The notes below the pieces were generated by a model that did not search any database, was not told where the DNA came from, and saw only the letters and a list, made by a program, of their open reading frames with translations. A stretch of DNA of 40,277 nucleotides from a virus (lineage: Duplodnaviria > Heunggongvirae > Uroviricota > Caudoviricetes): the IMG/VR virus record IMGVR_UViG_2563366843_000005. One strand, given 5' to 3'. Shown in pieces: positions 2,758-21,575 of this stretch. Each line of letters opens with the position of its first letter. The stretch's first letter is position 1. A program made the translations under genes and the position numbers.

Positions 2758-3428
2758 TGCTCCCCAAATACAAAACCAATTTCAGCCAGTGCCTCGTCCA
2801 TTTTTTCGATGAACTCCGGCACTATCTCGTCAAAATTCGCCATGTACTTTTCATCCCGCTCAACCACGACATAATGCAGGCCTTCACGCTTCATACGCGG
2901 GTCATAGTTGGCAAAGTACCAGGCATCTTTTCGCGTCACCCACATGCTGTACTGCACCTGGGCCATGTAAGCCGATTTTATGGCCTCGAAACCACCGAGC
3001 CGGAATTTCATGAAATCCCGGGAGGTAAACGGGCATTTCAGTTCAAGGCCGTTGCCGTCACTGCATAAACCATCCGGAGAGCAGGCGGTACGCATACTTT
3101 CGTCGCGATAGATGATCGGGGATTCAATAACATTCACGCCGGAAGTGAACTCAAACAGGGTTCTGGCGTCGTTCTCGTACTGTTTTCCCCAGGCCAGCGC
3201 CTTAGCATTAACTTCCGGAGCCACACCGGTGCAAACCTCAGCCAGCAGGGTGTGGAAGTAGGACATTTTCATGTCAGGCCACTTCTTTCCTGAGCGGGGC
3301 TTTGCTATCACGTTGTGAACTTCTGAAGCGGTGATGACGCCGAGCCGTAATTTGTGCCATGCATCATCCCCCTGTTCGACAGCTCTCACGTCGATCCCGG
3401 TACGCTGCAGGATAATGTCCGGTGTCAT
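2748..3428 (-). CDS. exo: lambda exonuclease (Red-alpha)
   Basis: 226-aa protein matching recalled lambda Exo along its full length ([50 protein letters not shown]...). Confidence 0.95.
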
Positions 3429-4210
3429 GCTGCCACCTTCTGCTCAGTGGCTTTCTGTTTCAGGAATCCAAGAGCTTTCACTGCTTCGGCCTGTGTCAGT
3501 TCTGACGATGCGCGAATGTCGCGGCGAAATATCTGGGAACAGAGCGGCAATAAGTCGTCATCCCATGTTTTATCCAGGGCGATCAGCAGAGTGTTAATCT
3601 CCTGCATGGTTTCATCGTTAACCGGAGTGATGTCGCGTTCTGGCTGACGTTCTGCAGTGTATGCAGTATTTTCGACAATGCGCTCGGCTTCATCCTTGTC
3701 ATAGATACCAGCAAATCCGAAGGCCAGACGGGCACACTGAATCATGGCTTTATGCCGTAACATCCGTTTGGGATGCGACTGCCACGGCCCCGTGATTTCT
3801 CTGCCTTCGCGAGTTTTGAATGGTTCGCGGCGGCATTCATCCATCCATTCGGTAACGCAGATCGGATGATTACGGTCCTTGCGGTAAATCCGGCATGTAC
3901 AGGATTCATTGTCCTGCTCAAAGTCCATGCCATCAAACTGCTGGTTTTCATTGATGATGCGGGACCAGCCATCAACGCCCACCACCGGAACGATGCCGTT
4001 CTGCTTATCAGGGAAGGCGTAAATTTCTTTCGTCCACGGATTAAGGCCGTACTGGTTGGCGACGATCAACAATGCGATGAACTGCGCATCGCTGGCATCA
4101 CCTTTAAATGCCGTCTGGCGAAGAGTGGTGATCAGTTCCTGTGGGTCGACAGAATCCATGCCGACACGTTCAGCCAGCTTCCCAGCCAGCGTTGCGAGTG
4201 CGGTACTCAT
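3425..4210 (-). CDS. bet: recombination protein Bet (Red-beta), single-strand annealing protein
   Basis: 261-aa protein matching lambda Beta; 4-nt overlap with exo. Confidence 0.95.
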
Positions 4211-5431: not shown

Positions 5432-5487
5432 TTGCGACATGGTGATAATAGCTATTGCTATTAGTGATATCAATACTTATTGCTATT
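5432..5487 (-). promoter_or_regulatory. pL promoter with OL operators (-35 TTGATA at 5468-5473, 17-bp spacer, -10 TATTAT at 5445-5450, minus strand)
   Basis: Sigma-70-like hexamers on the minus strand; three TTGC-core 8-mers at 5432, 5455 and 5480 (about 25-bp spacing) mirror the array at PR. Confidence 0.5.
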
Positions 5488-5612
5488 GATTGATGCATTT
5501 TGATATTAACTGTTTGATAGCAAAAGGAATTAATTTTGTGACTTGCATCGCATAGCGATAACTGAAGCGGGGGTTGTGGTGGTTTTTTGAACGGTGTGTG
5601 ATGAGGGGAGGC

Positions 5613-5640
5613 AAAAGAAAACCCGGCACGACGGCCGGGG
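5613..5640 (-). terminator. rho-independent terminator ending the cI operon
   Basis: GC stem CCCGGC/GCCGGG with 6-nt loop, followed on the minus strand by a T-run (TTTTCTTTT), directly after the stop of the 287-aa gene. Confidence 0.6.
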
Positions 5641-5643
5641 AAA

Positions 5644-6507
5644 TCATTTCGCATCTACAATAAATAACCTGTTTATCTGGCCTTTTTTAACAGTAGCCTT
5701 TGCGGTTATAGTGAATACTGCAGATGGATCACCTTTGGTTGATATATATGCACTAAGAGCTCTAATATACGGGTTATTCTTCTTTCCTGCAGCTGGATCG
5801 CTAATTTCAGCAGTGATTCTCTTTTTTGAGTCATCACCATCTAAAATTATTTTAGCTGTCATATTTTGTGCATCAAATTCTGTAAGAAAAGCACGATACT
5901 CACGAAGACCGAGAACTTCATCATCATCAAGCCTATCAATTTCAGCTTTATCTCTCTCGTTAACTTTTAGAAGGCAGCCGTCAACATTTGTTGCAACACT
6001 TATCTGATCGCAAGTATTACCAATAGGTGATACTGCCTGCCTTACAGAGGGGCGAAGCTCTACAGCCATTCGGTCAATCAAAGAGATCAACTTATCAATG
6101 GTTCCAGCATCCTTGTTTCCTAGTGCCTCTATGGCCTTTTCAAGTGACTGCTGCAAAGCTTTCATTTCATCTTTCTTGTTAGAATTTCTCGCAAAAATAT
6201 ATTGTAGTATTGCGCCAAGTATAGTTGCGGCGATCCCCGAGAACAACTGGTTCTGAGTGGCGAAGTTAAGAACTGCTTCAAGAGTAAAGCAGTTAGCTTT
6301 TGCTTCGCGTGCGTAAACCTTAACTTCCTGATAATTAATGTATTTACTATATTTTTGTGTAACAGAGAAAGAAGCTGCTGTTGAGAGAACTTTAGAAAAA
6401 CCCTTTAGGGATTCTCCTAGGCAGTTCAAATCTATTTCATGATTTAAAGCATCTTTTCCGTCATACCTAAGAGAGATTTTTATATCCTGTAAAGCGTCAC
6501 AATCCAT
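5644..6507 (-). CDS. hypothetical protein in the rexAB-equivalent slot; candidate exclusion or defence protein
   Basis: 287-aa ORF, visibly AT-rich, 66 bp downstream of cI on the same strand, followed by a terminator; one central hydrophobic segment ([18 protein letters not shown]); no recognisable family. Confidence 0.6.
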
Positions 6508-6573: not shown

Positions 6574-7266
6574 TTATCCATGTTTCCTGTACGTCTGGGG
6601 CATGCTCCCAATAACCTTACCGAAGATGAACACCCGGTTCATCTCGTCTTTCTCGATCGGGTCCCACGGTGAGTAGCTCTTGTTATCAGAGATAACCAGC
6701 AGCTTATCCTTCATCATTTGCAGGCGCTTTACATGGGCGGTGTCGTCGTACAGAAACGCATAGATGCCATCACCGTCGAAAGATTTAACCGTGATATCAA
6801 CGAACAGCAGATCACCTGGTTCGATCGTTCCTGACATGCTGTCACCACGCACGTTAATGATGCGGATATTTTCCGCCTTCCTGCCATCGAACATGTGACG
6901 AGCATCGTCAAACGAGTACTCAACCGAGCGTAGGACTTCTACAAACTCACGGTTGATGACTCCCGGCCCGGCACTCACTTCTATATCAAGAACGTCAATC
7001 TTGAAGTATTTGGAATGGTTGACAGTAGGCTTCCCTGATTGTTGACCGTCATTTCTCATCGGGCCTATGCCTGATGAGAGCCACTCTGTTCGAACACCCA
7101 ATGCATTAGCTATTTCAACAATTTTTGTTGAGCCGCGCGCGTTGCCGCTTGTCAGTCTCCAGATTGTTGGTTGAGCTACGCCAGACGCCTTTGCAAGAGC
7201 GCCTTGAGACATCCCAGATTGTTCCATCGCTAGGTTTAAGCGATCAGCAAGAGTTTCTTTTTTCAT
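6574..7266 (-). CDS. cI: CI-type prophage repressor (HTH plus S24 LexA-like peptidase domain)
   Basis: N-terminal HTH; Ala-Gly cleavage site (VSAGPG); GDSM serine and downstream KRL lysine of S24 peptidases; start set at ATG 7264-7266 (leaderless relative to putative PRM) rather than the upstream ORF start at 7323. Confidence 0.85.
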   Translation of the reverse strand: MKKETLADRLNLAMEQSGMSQGALAKASGVAQPTIWRLTSGNARGSTKIVEIANALGVRTEWLSSGIGPMRNDGQQSGKPTVNHSKYFKIDVLDIEVSAGPGVINREFVEVLRSVEYSFDDARHMFDGRKAENIRIINVRGDSMSGTIEPGDLLFVDITVKSFDGDGIYAFLYDDTAHVKRLQMMKDKLLVISDNKSYSPWDPIEKDEMNRVFIFGKVIGSMPQTYRKHG

Positions 7267-7275
7267 AAGTTTTAA

Positions 7276-7345
7276 TTTATACGCTTGCGTATTGATGGTC
7301 AAAACACGTTTTGCTATTGTCATGGTTAATACGCATTGCTATTAT
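7276..7345. promoter_or_regulatory. OR operator region with divergent PRM (leftward) and PR (rightward; -35 TTGTCA 7317-7322, -10 TATTAT 7340-7345)
   Basis: TTGC-core 8-mers at 7285, 7311 and 7336 at the same spacing as at pL; 14-bp palindromes ATACGCTTGCGTAT (7279-7292) and CAAAACACGTTTTG (7300-7313); PRM-like TTGACC-15-TATAAA on the minus strand ending next to the cI ATG. Confidence 0.55.
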
Positions 7346-7376
7346 TCATTCATTGTAATACCAATAGGAATTGATA

Positions 7377-7604
7377 ATGACAAATCAAACCATTCAACTC
7401 GCAATCAGTATTACAGGTAGTCAAAAACGACTGGCAGATCTATGCGGTGTAGCCCAGCCCACTGTTTGGCGTTGGCTACACGGTGGCGGAATTGATGCCC
7501 GCTATGTAATGAAAATTGTCTCAGCCACTGGTGGAAAGATTAAGCCAGCAGATATTCGTCCCGACCTCGCACCATTGTTTAACGCGAGTAATTCTGCCGC
7601 CTAA
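7377..7604 (+). CDS. cro: Cro-like HTH regulator
   Basis: Small HTH protein (QKRLADLCGVAQPTVWRW) divergent from cI and directly downstream of PR. Confidence 0.7.
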   Translation: MTNQTIQLAISITGSQKRLADLCGVAQPTVWRWLHGGGIDARYVMKIVSATGGKIKPADIRPDLAPLFNASNSAA

Positions 7605-7634: not shown

Positions 7635-8174
7635 ATGCAACCACTTACATACCAACAGACTAGCGGATTTAGCCCGACTGCGGTGATAAATCGTTCTCAA
7701 ATAAAACAGGTGCCAGGCCACGAAAAAATTCGTGATGCCGTCCGCGCCTGGTCTGCTGAAGATAATCAGGATGTAGTTGCCGCACTCATTGTGAATGAGT
7801 ATCGAGCACAGGGCGGCGGCACCATCGATTTTCCTGATGATGTCAGTCGTGCACGCCAGAAGCTGTTCCGCTTCCTCGATAACAAATTCGATTCTGAAAA
7901 ATACCGAAATAACGTGCGTGAACTGACCCCGGCAATTCTGGCGGTATTACCGCTGGAATATCGCGGCCACCTGGTTGAGCAGGATAGCTTCATGGCTCGG
8001 CTGGCTGAAATGGAAAAGGAACTCAGTGAGGCAAAGCAGGCGGTCATTCTCAACGCACCACGCCACCAGAAACTGAAGGAGATGAGTGAAGGCATTGTGT
8101 CGATGTTTCGAGTGGACCCGGATCTGGCTGGTCCATTGATGGCGATGGTCACCACCATGCTGGGGGCAATATGA
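7635..8174 (+). CDS. hypothetical early regulatory protein in the cII position
   Basis: 179-aa ORF between cro and O; much larger than lambda CII with no recalled similarity to it. Confidence 0.4.
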   Translation: MQPLTYQQTSGFSPTAVINRSQIKQVPGHEKIRDAVRAWSAEDNQDVVAALIVNEYRAQGGGTIDFPDDVSRARQKLFRFLDNKFDSEKYRNNVRELTPAILAVLPLEYRGHLVEQDSFMARLAEMEKELSEAKQAVILNAPRHQKLKEMSEGIVSMFRVDPDLAGPLMAMVTTMLGAI

Positions 8175-13395: not shown

Positions 13396-14193
13396 ATGCT
13401 GGCAAGAGGTAAGACTAACTTAAAGATCGAAGAAATACGGATGCATAAACATCATGAGATTCATAGGGTTAAGCCTCTTATGCCAGCTTTGTGTCGTATC
13501 CGTCAGGGAAAGAAAGTTATCAATTGGGAGACGCATACTTTAACTGTTGATAATAATCAAATAATATTATTTCCTTGTGGTTATGAATTTTATATTGAGA
13601 ATTATCCTGAAGCAGGGCTTTATCTTGCAGAAATGCTTTACTTACCCATTGATTTAATTGAGAGTTTCCAAAAACTTTATACGGTAACTGATCAAATACG
13701 TAACAAAACAAGTTTCTTTTTACCTCAGAATCCTGAGTTAATATATTGTTGGGAGCAACTAAAAACATCTGTTTCCCGAGGCTTCTCAACTAAAATTCAG
13801 GAGCACTTAGCAATGGGCGTTCTACTTTCGTTAGGAGTGAATCATGTTAATCATTTACTTTTATCATATAGTAAACAATCATTGATAAGTCGTTGTTATA
13901 ACCTGCTGCTATCCGAACCCGGCACAAAATGGACAGCAAACAAGGTTGCTCGATATCTCTACATTTCTGTTTCTACATTACATCGCCGTCTAGCAAGCGA
14001 GGGGGTAAGTTTCCAAAGTATACTGGACGATGTGAGGTTAAATAATGCGTTGTCTGCTATACAAACGACGGTAAAACCTATAAGCGAGATTGCCAGAGAA
14101 AATGGTTATAAGTGTCCTTCTCGTTTTACTGAAAGATTTCATAATCGTTTTAATATAACACCAAGAGAGATAAGAAAAGCTTCCAGAGAGTAA
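13396..14193 (+). CDS. ybcM: AraC-family transcriptional regulator YbcM
   Basis: 265 aa with C-terminal AraC-type HTH; low-GC. Confidence 0.8.
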
Positions 14194-14309
14194 AAGTGTT
14201 TTAAGAAGGAGCAATTCTATCGATTTTGATTTTGGGAAATCAACACGGCATAATTATGTCACCGGAGCCTGAACAACTCCGGTGACTTCTGCGCTAAACG
14301 GGGACGTTT

Positions 14310-21164: not shown

Positions 21165-21575
21165 TTAGCGTGGAAAGATTTGTGTAGTGTTCTGAATGCT
21201 CTCAGTAAATAGTAATGAATTATCAAAGGTATAGTAATATCTTTTATGTTCGTGGATATTTGTAACCCATCGGAAAACTCCTGCTTTAGCAAGATTTTCC
21301 CTGTATTGCTGAAATGTGATTTCTCTTGATTTCAACCTATCAAAGGACGTTTCTATAAGATGCGTATTTCTTGAGAATTTAACATTTACAACCTTTTTAA
21401 GTCCTTTTATTAACACAGTGTTATCGTTTTCTAACACAATGTGAATATTATCTGTGGCTAGATAGTAAATATAATGTGAGACATTGTGACGTTTTAGTTC
21501 AGAATAAAACAATTCACAGTTTAAATCTTTTCGCACTTGATCGAATATTTCTTTAAAAATGGCAACCTGAGCCAT
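21165..21575 (-). CDS. ybcV: YbcV-like protein (ORF extends to 21698; likely start at Met 21575)
   Basis: 136 aa from [11 protein letters not shown]...; position after bor as in DLP12. Confidence 0.55.

What the first reader, a model, noticed from the sequence alone, without database searches (positions are those of the whole stretch)
7276..7345. Compact divergent PRM/PR switch with leaderless cI and two different 14-bp palindromes
PR (TTGTCA-17-TATTAT) and a divergent PRM-like promoter are interleaved with the three TTGC-core repeats. The PRM -10 lies only about 9 nt from the cI ATG (7264-7266), implying a leaderless cI mRNA as in lambda. Two perfect 6-2-6 palindromes with different sequences (ATACGCTTGCGTAT at 7279-7292 and CAAAACACGTTTTG at 7300-7313) sit in the same interval, which could mean repressor and Cro, or a host factor, recognise different sites.
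Basis: partly seen in the sequence, partly recalled or inferred. Interest (0 to 1): 0.4.

Follow-up and report, generated by a model that had tools for sequence, protein, structure and literature searches.

The report
Ordinary three-operator lambdoid prophage switch
This is the lysis/lysogeny control region of a common E. coli lambda-like prophage, with three copies of one 14-bp repressor site interleaved with two back-to-back promoters; the "second palindrome" is most likely a by-product of a promoter element abutting the middle site, not a separate protein-binding site.

Summary
The interval 7267-7376 is the OR region of a lambdoid prophage, lying between a leftward cI (HTH + S24 peptidase) and a rightward cro (YdaS family).

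It holds three 14-bp pseudo-palindromic operators (consensus ATACGCATTGCTAT) at an exact 25-bp period. They are interleaved with PR (TTGTCA-17-TATTAT) and PRM (TTGACC-17-TAAATT). The same 14-mer recurs at PL/OL (5448, 5473, 5517) and in 33 distinct related switches from Enterobacterales.

The first palindrome is simply OR3. The second spans the PRM -35 and OR2. It occurs once, and one arm position varies freely in relatives. It is lost in ten distinct switches that keep identical cI and Cro recognition helices. Those helices are nearly the same in cI and Cro (QPTIWR / QPTVWR), so separate sites for the two proteins are not supported.

Leaderless cI is well supported by comparison but is not mapped. 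The -10 lies 7 nt (not 9) before the ATG over variable sequence, there is no Shine-Dalgarno, and position -1 is always a pyrimidine.

The switch is in 13% of complete E. coli genomes. I rate it a new member of a known kind.

The parts
6574..7266 (-). cI repressor gene (230 aa; N-terminal HTH plus C-terminal S24 autopeptidase). The start codon is ATG at 7266-7264.
   Evidence: ORF list. Pfam HTH_3 1.8e-6 and Peptidase_S24 1.3e-18. The N-terminal domain is closest to the 434 repressor among solved structures, E about 2e-6. The MKKETL start is conserved in relatives, whereas the longer in-frame ATG at 7321-7323 is absent from most of them.
7274..7279 (-). PRM -10 hexamer TAAATT, 7 nt upstream of the cI ATG.
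   Evidence: Scanner. TAAATT 29, TAGATT 3, TAAGTT 1 in 33 distinct relatives.
7279..7292 (.). OR3 operator ATACGCTTGCGTAT. It lies in the PRM spacer and overlaps the first base of the PRM -10.
   Evidence: 1.65 bit/column; outer ATA...GTAT invariant.
7297..7302 (-). PRM -35 hexamer TTGACC.
   Evidence: Scanner. TTGACC in 22 of 33 relatives, TTGAC/TTGAT-type in most of the others. The 17-bp spacer to the -10 is kept even where OR3-OR2 spacing shrinks to 24 bp.
7300..7313 (.). It spans the last 3 bp of the PRM -35, 1 spacer bp and OR2 positions 1-10.
   Evidence: It is single-copy, not symmetrically constrained, and lost in distant relatives that have the same recognition helices.
7304..7317 (.). 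OR2 operator ACACGTTTTGCTAT. It fills the gap between the two -35 hexamers: 1 bp from the PRM -35, and it shares 1 bp with the PR -35.
7317..7322 (+). PR -35 hexamer TTGTCA.
7329..7342 (.). OR1 operator ATACGCATTGCTAT. It covers the PR spacer and the first 3 bp of the PR -10. Its TTGC core supplies the TG of the extended -10.
   Evidence: 1.89 bit/column, the best-conserved site.
7340..7345 (+). PR -10 hexamer TATTAT. The predicted start is near 7352.
   Evidence: The start position is an inference.
7358..7371 (+). Conserved ATAC box followed by the cro Shine-Dalgarno (ATACCAATAGGAAT). It resembles OL3. Its role is unknown.
   Evidence: ATAC is invariant in 28 of 28 distinct sequences, 12 +/- 1 nt past the PR -10.
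7377..7604 (+). cro (75 aa, YdaS-family HTH).
   Evidence: Pfam YdaS_toxin 9.6e-15. Its HTH is 40% identical to the cI HTH over 48 aa, E 2e-8.
7635..8174 (+). cII analogue of the YdaT family.
   Evidence: Pfam YdaT_toxin 8.2e-30. Annotated as CII-like in phage 4A7.
5445..5473 (-). PL promoter TTGATA-17-TATTAT.
   Evidence: Scanner.
5448..5461 (.). OL1 operator ATAGCTATTGCTAT. It overlaps the PL -10 in the same geometry as OR1 over PR.
5473..5486 (.). OL2 operator ATACTTATTGCTAT, 25 bp from OL1. It shares 1 bp with the PL -35.
   Evidence: It is the best non-OR PWM hit in the 40-kb window.
5517..5530 (-). OL3 candidate ATTCCTTTTGCTAT, 44 bp from OL2 and in inverted orientation.
   Evidence: The same site at the same 44-bp offset occurs in BTP1, ST104, 4A7 and many genomic loci.
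5644..6507 (-). Accessory ORF (DUF7946 + DUF7947) downstream of cI, probably co-transcribed from PRM. A terminator-like hairpin follows at 5622-5639.
   Evidence: Co-transcription is an inference by analogy with cI-bstA in BTP1 (PMC7067206).

Best explanation
The interval is the right operator (OR) of a lambdoid prophage immunity region.

Three 14-bp pseudo-palindromic operators sit at 25-bp centre-to-centre spacing: OR3 7279-7292, OR2 7304-7317 and OR1 7329-7342. The consensus is ATAC-N6-(G/C)TAT, roughly ATACGCATTGCTAT. Both the cI repressor dimer and the Cro dimer are predicted to bind them, because the two proteins have homologous HTH motifs with almost identical recognition helices.

Predicted mechanism (inferred by analogy with lambda and 434):
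- Repressor on OR1 and OR2 occludes PR (-35 at 7317-7322, -10 at 7340-7345).
- OR2 abuts the PRM -35 (7297-7302), so repressor bound there can contact RNA polymerase at PRM.
- OR3 lies inside the PRM spacer and -10, so Cro, or excess repressor, shuts PRM off.
- The same sites at OL1, OL2 and OL3 control PL in mirror geometry, about 1.8 kb away.

PRM (TTGACC-17-TAAATT) most likely starts transcription at the A of the cI ATG, 8 nt after the -10. That would give a leaderless cI mRNA.

The first palindrome is OR3 itself. The second palindrome is not an independent element. It arises where the bottom-strand TTG of the PRM -35 faces the top-strand TTG core of OR2, plus a lineage-specific sequence in the degenerate left half of OR2.

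Shown: sequence anatomy, recurrence at OL, conservation patterns, and protein homology. Inferred: actual binding, order of occupancy, activation of PRM, and the transcription start.
For: Operators within the window:
- The three 14-mers lie at an exact 25-bp period.
- A PWM built only from the three OR sites ranks OL2 (5473) as the best other hit in 40 kb. OL3 and OL1 are also in the top 11.
- PL overlaps OL1 and OL2 in the same geometry as PR overlaps OR1 and OR2.

Comparative evidence:
- In 33 distinct related switches, operators average 1.5-1.9 bit/column against about 1.0 for the spacers. Spacing is fixed: CAT-12 nt-OR3, then 25 or 24 bp, then 25 bp.
- 23 of 24 genomic loci have a second cluster of the 14-mers on the PL side of cI. 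None has one on the cro side.

Shared recognition by cI and Cro:
- The cI and Cro HTH regions are 40% identical, E 2e-8, with helices QPTIWR and QPTVWR.
- The helices and the operators change together in HK639: QPAIQK/QPAVHK with ATAACC-NN-GGTTAT.
- The closest solved structure to the cI N-terminal domain is the 434 repressor.

Leaderless cI:
- The -10-to-ATG distance is 7 nt in 20 of 21 distinct leaders, and position -1 is a pyrimidine in 21 of 21.
- There is no Shine-Dalgarno: anti-SD duplex -0.86 kcal/mol upstream of cI against -4.96 upstream of cro.
- BTP1 cI-bstA has a single TSS (PMC7067206).
- CP-933P paaR2 is proven leaderless, and the PaaR2 and YdaS footprints overlap (PMC8630535).
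Against: - There are no binding, footprint or TSS data for this operator family. None of the operator sequences occurs in the searched literature.
- The TSS coordinate for BTP1 cI could not be retrieved.
- The inner core of palindrome 2, AAAC-AC-GTTT, is invariant in all 23 same-register relatives. A lineage-specific extra function therefore cannot be fully excluded.
- The near-consensus PRM -35 (TTGACC) differs from lambda's weak PRM, so dependence on activation by repressor is uncertain.
- One relative (L031) has a G-rich, SD-like stretch upstream of cI.
Confidence: 0.85

Rival explanations
1. One reading: the two palindromes are two different recognition elements. ATACGC-TT-GCGTAT would serve one protein, and CAAAAC-AC-GTTTTG would serve another (Cro versus repressor, or a host or third factor acting at the PRM -35/OR2 junction).
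For: Both are perfect 6-2-6 palindromes in one 110-bp interval (P about 0.003). Under a constrained null the second one is expected only 1-3% of the time. Its inner core AAACACGTTT is invariant in 23 close relatives. For CP-933P the authors also reported two overlapping classes of repeats in the intergenic region and left open that both are used (PMC8630535).
Against: - Palindrome 2 is single-copy in the window and absent from all OL clusters.
- Right-arm position 5 carries 0.3 bit (T/A/C/G), while its partner in the left arm is fixed by other constraints.
- Ten distinct switches with identical cI and Cro helices have 3/6 or fewer arm matches.
- cI and Cro have near-identical recognition helices.
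- Palindrome 1 clearly belongs to the same 14-mer family as OR1, OR2 and the OL sites.
Confidence: 0.06
2. Palindrome 2 is the binding site of the YdaT-type CII analogue encoded just downstream.
For: The window encodes a YdaT-family protein. YdaT of CP-933P binds an inverted repeat (PMC9986795).
Against: Characterised YdaT binds TTGATT-N6-AATCAA between ydaS and ydaT, not in the cI-cro interval. BTP1, ST104 and the Klebsiella phages keep palindrome 2 perfectly, yet they encode a short lambda/P22-type CII rather than YdaT.
Confidence: 0.02
3. cI is not leaderless. Either it is translated from a leadered transcript that starts further upstream, or it starts at the upstream in-frame ATG (7321-7323).
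For: The mechanical ORF extends to 7323. BTP1's cI is annotated 12 codons longer. The promoter calls are consensus matches only.
Against: - The upstream in-frame ATG is absent in 4A7 (97% identical) and in most relatives.
- An upstream start would lie inside PR and OR2.
- No SD precedes either start.
- The 7-nt -10-to-ATG spacing and the pyrimidine at -1 are conserved over free sequence.
- There is a single TSS for cI-bstA in BTP1.
Confidence: 0.1

Closest known systems
Phage lambda OR/OL switch (cI, Cro, PR, PRM, PL)
   Same: - Divergent cI (HTH + S24) and cro.
- Three tandem pseudo-palindromic operators: one over the PR -10, one between the two -35 elements, and one inside PRM.
- Operator spacing of 25/25 bp here against 24/23 bp in lambda (established knowledge).
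- A second operator set at PL.
- Leaderless cI from PRM in lambda (PMC10491246; PMC8630535), with a -10 of the TAGATT type.
- An accessory-gene slot downstream of cI.
   Different: - 14-bp operators rather than 17-bp, with an unrelated sequence (ATAC-N6-sTAT).
- The PRM -35 is near-consensus (TTGACC) where lambda's is weak.
- Cro is of the YdaS family and CII of the YdaT family, neither related to lambda Cro or CII.
- OL3 lies 44 bp from OL2 and is inverted.
Phage 434 repressor and its 14-bp operators
   Same: The 434 repressor DNA-binding domain is the closest solved relative of this cI N-terminal domain (E 2e-6 to 1e-5). Both use 14-bp operators with conserved outer bases and a more variable centre (434 operator anatomy is from established knowledge), with three sites at OR.
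   Different: The outer half-site is ATAC/ATAG rather than ACAA. The recognition helix is QPTIWR rather than QQSIEQ (alignment). That means a different immunity specificity.
CP-933P / Rac-type PaaR2(RacR)-YdaS-YdaT switch (Jurenas et al. 2021, PMC8630535; Prolic-Kalinsek et al. 2023, PMC9986795)
   Same: The Cro analogue is YdaS family and the CII analogue YdaT family. The intergenic region is about 100 bp with back-to-back PR and PRM. The repressor mRNA is proven leaderless there. Repressor and YdaS footprints overlap, and a PL/OL counterpart exists.
   Different: The repressor here is a full-length 230-aa HTH + S24 protein, whereas PaaR2 is about 15 kDa. The operator sequence and number differ: CP-933P has four 18-bp inverted repeats with a GTTTAGTAA-type half-site plus three 'operators'. 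No toxin-antitoxin cargo is present here; a DUF7946/DUF7947 gene occupies that slot.
Immunity regions of Salmonella P22-like phages BTP1, ST104, SE1 and ST160, and E. coli Bievrevirus phages (4A7, Lambda_4C10, Perceval)
   Same: They have the same operator family, the same promoter geometry, and a cI N-terminal domain 88-99% identical. BTP1 cI-bstA is transcribed from one TSS and is highly expressed in lysogens (PMC7067206).
   Different: cI C-terminal domains, CII type, replication genes and accessory genes are mosaic. No operator description for any of these phages was found in the searched literature.

Membership tests
Lambdoid CI/Cro bistable switch (OR type) | Divergently transcribed repressor (HTH + LexA-like S24 autopeptidase) and small HTH Cro | tested here: met
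   Pfam: cI has HTH_3 plus Peptidase_S24 (1.3e-18); Cro is YdaS/Cro-like (9.6e-15). Gene layout.
Lambdoid CI/Cro bistable switch (OR type) | Three tandem pseudo-palindromic operators in the intergenic region, overlapping PR and PRM | tested here: met
   14-mers at 7279, 7304 and 7329. PR and PRM positions. Conserved in 33 distinct relatives.
Lambdoid CI/Cro bistable switch (OR type) | Same operator motif at a distal PL/OL | tested here: met
   OL1, OL2 and OL3 at 5448, 5473 and 5517, overlapping PL. 23 of 24 related loci have an OL-side cluster.
Lambdoid CI/Cro bistable switch (OR type) | Repressor and Cro bind the same operators with different rank order | not testable with these tools
   Indirect evidence only. 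The HTH motifs are homologous with near-identical recognition helices. The helices and the operators change together in HK639.
Lambdoid CI/Cro bistable switch (OR type) | Leaderless cI mRNA from PRM | tested here: inconclusive
   Comparative signature only: fixed 7-nt -10-to-ATG spacing, pyrimidine at -1 and A at +1, and no SD. No TSS coordinate was obtainable.
Lambdoid CI/Cro bistable switch (OR type) | RecA-stimulated autocleavage of the repressor | not testable with these tools
   An S24 domain is present. Reading the translation shows an Ala-Gly (VSAGPG), GDSM (Ser) and VKRL (Lys). Function was not tested.
434-type repressor/operator | DNA-binding domain homologous to the 434 repressor N-terminal domain | tested here: met
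   phmmer against PDB: 1sq8, 2r63, 1per, 2or1, 1rpe; E 2e-6 to 1.6e-5 over about 60 aa.
434-type repressor/operator | 14-bp operator of sequence ACAA-N6-TTGT (434 immunity specificity) | tested here: not met
   The operators are 14 bp but read ATAC-N6-(G/C)TAT. The recognition helix also differs. This is the same architecture with a different specificity, so it is not 434 immunity.
CP-933P/Rac-type PaaR2-YdaS-YdaT module | Cro analogue of the YdaS family and CII analogue of the YdaT family | tested here: met
   PF15943 9.6e-15; PF06254 8.2e-30.
CP-933P/Rac-type PaaR2-YdaS-YdaT module | Short PaaR2/RacR-type repressor (no S24 domain) with toxin-antitoxin cargo downstream | tested here: not met
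   The repressor is 230 aa with an S24 domain, and the downstream ORF is DUF7946/DUF7947. PaaR2-His is 15 kDa (PMC8630535).

The most novel reading that the evidence does not exclude
The second palindrome has an inner core, AAAC-AC-GTTT, that is invariant in all 23 close relatives. It could be a lineage-specific site for a third factor (host or phage) acting exactly at the PRM -35/OR2 junction. That would add an extra input to the lysogeny-maintenance promoter which classical lambdoid switches lack.
Probability: 0.06. Interest if true: 0.5.

Novelty: new member of a known kind. Interest (0 to 1): 0.2.

Why it matters
This immunity type is common. It is carried by 723 of 5426 complete E. coli genomes and by prophages across Enterobacterales. 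It is also present in BTP1 of epidemic Salmonella Typhimurium ST313, a phage noted for very high spontaneous induction (PMC5322425).

Its operators do not appear in the searched literature. A defined operator consensus and promoter map gives three things: a ready basis for predicting cross-immunity among these prophages, targets for engineering, and a second natural test case for leaderless repressor translation.

It does not change the understanding of how such switches work.

Tried and rejected
1. I looked for the mapped TSS of the orthologous BTP1 cI (STMMW_03541) in the supplements of PMC7067206, PMC5856525 and PMC6333337. Only gene coordinates, expression values and proteomics are held there, with no TSS table.
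2. Full-text search for seven of the operator and palindrome sequences, in one or both orientations, found no paper.
3. I tested the YdaT-site idea for palindrome 2 and rejected it, because the characterised site has a different location and sequence and because palindrome 2 persists in phages that lack YdaT.
4. I compared palindrome 2 from memory with known E. coli regulator motifs: LacI/PurR/Cra-family sites with a central CG, CRP, FNR, IHF, FadR and Fur. None fits convincingly. This was recall, not a computed test.
5. I considered head-to-tail binding to direct repeats, as with P2 C. I rejected it because the outer ATA...TAT symmetry is the most conserved part of each site, and because the closest structural relative (434 repressor) binds palindromes as a dimer.
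6. I considered the longer cI ORF starting at 7323. I rejected it because that ATG is missing in most relatives.

Full report
**What is there.** The window is a lambdoid prophage with a typical early region.
- It is 100% identical over the tested 501 bp to a chromosomal prophage of E. coli UMB200201_11. A match of at least 95% identity is present in 723 of 5426 complete E. coli genomes.
- On the minus strand, 6574-7266 encodes a 230-aa repressor with an N-terminal HTH and a C-terminal S24 autopeptidase domain.
- On the plus strand, 7377-7604 encodes a 75-aa YdaS-family Cro analogue, and 7635-8174 a YdaT-family CII analogue. O- and P-like replication genes follow.
- The finding covers most of the 110-bp cI-cro intergenic region, 7267-7376.

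**Checking the observation.** Every motif is at the stated coordinate.
- The promoter scanner independently reports PR (TTGTCA-17-TATTAT, 7317-7345, with a TG-extended -10) and a divergent PRM (TTGACC-17-TAAATT, 7302-7274).
- Both palindromes are perfect 6-2-6 inverted repeats. Two in a 110-bp interval of this composition has P of about 0.003.
- The first palindrome is the first of these 14-mers.

**The 14-mers are the operators.**
- A weight matrix built only from the three OR sites ranks ATACTTATTGCTAT (5473-5486) as the best other hit in the 40-kb window. It also picks up 5517-5530 (minus strand) and 5448-5461.
- These lie at a leftward promoter, TTGATA-17-TATTAT (5473-5445). OL1 covers the spacer and -10, and OL2 touches the -35, 25 bp away. 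This mirrors OR1 and OR2 at PR.
- Phages sharing the cI DNA-binding domain show the same OR layout and their own OL clusters: E. coli 4A7 (99% identical); Salmonella BTP1 and ST104, and two Klebsiella phages (about 87-88%); a Yersinia phage (64%).
- A scan of bacterial genomes added 38 loci. In all, 35 switches (33 distinct) share the architecture CAT-12 nt-OR3-(11 or 10 nt)-OR2-11 nt-OR1-TAT.
- Information content is 1.89 (OR1), 1.65 (OR3) and 1.52 (OR2) bit per column, against about 1.0 in the spacers.
- In 23 of 24 loci with enough flank there is a second cluster of the 14-mers on the PL side of cI, and never on the cro side.

**Do cI and Cro read the same sites?**
- The HTH regions of cI and Cro are homologous (40% identity over 48 aa, E 2e-8). 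The recognition helices are nearly identical: GVAQPTIWR and GVAQPTVWR.
- In HK639 both helices differ (QPAIQK and QPAVHK), and all three operators change with them to ATAACC-NN-GGTTAT, at 24- and 25-bp spacing.
- The nearest solved structure to the cI N-terminal domain is the 434 repressor, which binds 14-bp operators as a dimer (established knowledge).
- In the related CP-933P switch, the repressor and YdaS footprints overlap (PMC8630535).
- Shared operators is therefore the expected situation, although it has not been shown here.

**The second palindrome.** CAAAACACGTTTTG (7300-7313) is made of the last three bases of the PRM -35 (GGTCAA on the top strand), one spacer base, and OR2 positions 1-10.

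Evidence against an independent site:
- It occurs once in the window and is never found at an OL.
- Among 23 distinct same-register relatives the left arm is invariant, because it is fixed by the -35 and by OR2 position 1.
- Right-arm position 5 (OR2 position 9) is T12/A8/C2/G1. At 0.3 bit it is the least constrained column of OR2.
- In ten further distinct switches (Yersinia, Proteus, Providencia, Morganella, Serratia, Dryocola, Buttiauxella) only 1-3 of 6 arm pairs survive. The operators, the promoters and the exact cI (QPTIWRL) and Cro (QPTVWRW) helices are all retained.
- BTP1, ST104 and the Klebsiella phages keep the palindrome but have a different, lambda-type CII. Characterised YdaT binds elsewhere. 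Together these exclude a CII site.

Evidence I cannot dismiss:
- Under a null that fixes only the -35 and the invariant operator positions, a perfect palindrome arises in 1-3% of simulations.
- The inner AAAC-AC-GTTT is invariant in the 23 close relatives.
- I therefore leave about 6% for a lineage-specific extra function.

**Leaderless cI.**
- The -10 register supported by comparison is TAAATT (TAAATT 29, TAGATT 3, TAAGTT 1). It keeps a 17-bp spacer from TTGAC(C/G) even where the OR3-OR2 spacing is 24 bp.
- It ends 7 nt before the ATG in 20 of 21 distinct leaders, and 6 nt in the other. Those 7 nt are otherwise free, but position -1 is a pyrimidine in 21 of 21, followed by the A of ATG. Pyrimidine at -1 and purine at +1 is the usual start-site preference (established knowledge).
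- Predicted anti-SD pairing averages -0.86 kcal/mol upstream of cI against -4.96 upstream of cro.
- The longer in-frame ATG at 7321-7323 is missing from most relatives.
- In BTP1, cI-bstA is one operon with a single TSS (PMC7067206).
- In CP-933P, 5'-RACE and N-terminal sequencing proved a leaderless repressor mRNA (PMC8630535). Lambda cI is the classic case (PMC10491246).
- I could not retrieve a TSS coordinate for any member of this operator family, so this remains a strong inference.

**Mechanism (inferred).**
- Repressor dimers on OR1 and OR2 block PR.
- OR2 fills the 14 bp between the two -35 hexamers, so repressor bound there is placed to contact polymerase at PRM.
- OR3 lies in the PRM spacer and -10, giving negative autoregulation and making it the Cro target.
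- OL1 to OL3 repress PL and could loop to OR, about 1.8 kb away.
- The S24 domain implies SOS-dependent induction.
- One difference from lambda: the PRM -35 is near-consensus, so basal PRM activity may be higher.

**Comparison and novelty.**
- The region works like lambda or 434 OR and passes the sequence-testable membership criteria for a lambdoid switch.
- It has 434-like operator architecture but a different specificity.
- Its Cro and CII are of the YdaS/YdaT type, as in CP-933P, but its repressor is a full-length S24 protein.
- No description of these operators was found in the searched literature.
- I classify it as a new member of a known kind: ordinary in mechanism and widespread in nature.

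Noticed in passing
window 7358-7371: An invariant ATAC tetranucleotide lies 12 +/- 1 nt past the PR -10, at about +6 to +10 of the cro mRNA and 18-20 nt before the cro ATG. It is present in 28 of 28 distinct relatives amid variable sequence. The 14-mer ATACCAATAGGAAT matches OL3 (ATAGCAAAAGGAAT) at 11 of 14 positions. It could be a fourth weak operator or half-site over the cro ribosome-binding site, or an RNA-level element.
   Followed up: partly
window 7317-7344 vs 7356-7383: A 28-nt inverted repeat, 75% complementary, pairs the PR -35-to-10 region (including OR1) with the cro 5' UTR and start codon. TTGTCAT faces ATGACAA. The left arm lies upstream of the predicted PR start, so it is not an obvious mRNA hairpin.
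   Followed up: no
window 7371-7388, 14226-14243, 21326-21343: There are sequences matching the experimentally defined YdaT operator of CP-933P (TTGATT-N6-AATCAA). An exact match at 14226 lies in the intergenic gap after an AraC-family ORF and before a NinB-like ORF. One-mismatch copies lie across the cro start codon (7371) and at 21326. My rough estimate is 0.1-0.3 such hits by chance in 40 kb. The 7371 copy is already degraded in phage 4A7 (TTAATA...).
   Followed up: partly
window 5644-6507 (- strand), terminator 5622-5639: A 287-aa ORF with DUF7946 and DUF7947 domains occupies the accessory slot between cI and PL. Lambda has rexAB there, BTP1 the BstA defence gene and CP-933P a toxin-antitoxin pair. 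That makes it a candidate prophage-encoded defence or exclusion gene co-transcribed with cI.
   Followed up: no
L006 (phage Fraca) 3369-3482, L007 (ASU11), L030 (Superficieibacter): This is a sister switch type. cI has the same recognition helix (QPTIWR), but Cro has a different one (QPSVSRW). The OR3-OR2 spacing is 33 bp. cI has a GGAGG Shine-Dalgarno embedded in OR3, so it is leadered. This would be a better place to look for divergence between cI and Cro site preferences.
   Followed up: partly
L004 (BTP1) 3425-3488 vs L005 (ST104): BTP1 is noted for very high spontaneous induction. It differs from its near-twin ST104 by one base in OR1 (ATACTAATTGCTAT vs ATACTCATTGCTAT) and one in OR3 (ATACGCTTGAGTAT vs ATACGCTTGCGTAT). 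Both variants also occur naturally in other relatives, so relevance to induction frequency is untested.
   Followed up: no
window 13396-14193: An AraC-family transcription regulator (HTH_18 9.5e-17, ExsA_N-like N-terminus) is encoded inside the nin region of the prophage. It is a likely accessory (moron) gene.
   Followed up: no
L021 (JBKEAL010000003.1, 1652 bp): A 1.6-kb contig binned as a Parachlamydiaceae MAG carries this enterobacterial prophage switch, with a cI N-terminal domain 89% identical and identical operators. This is almost certainly contamination or mis-binning.
   Followed up: no
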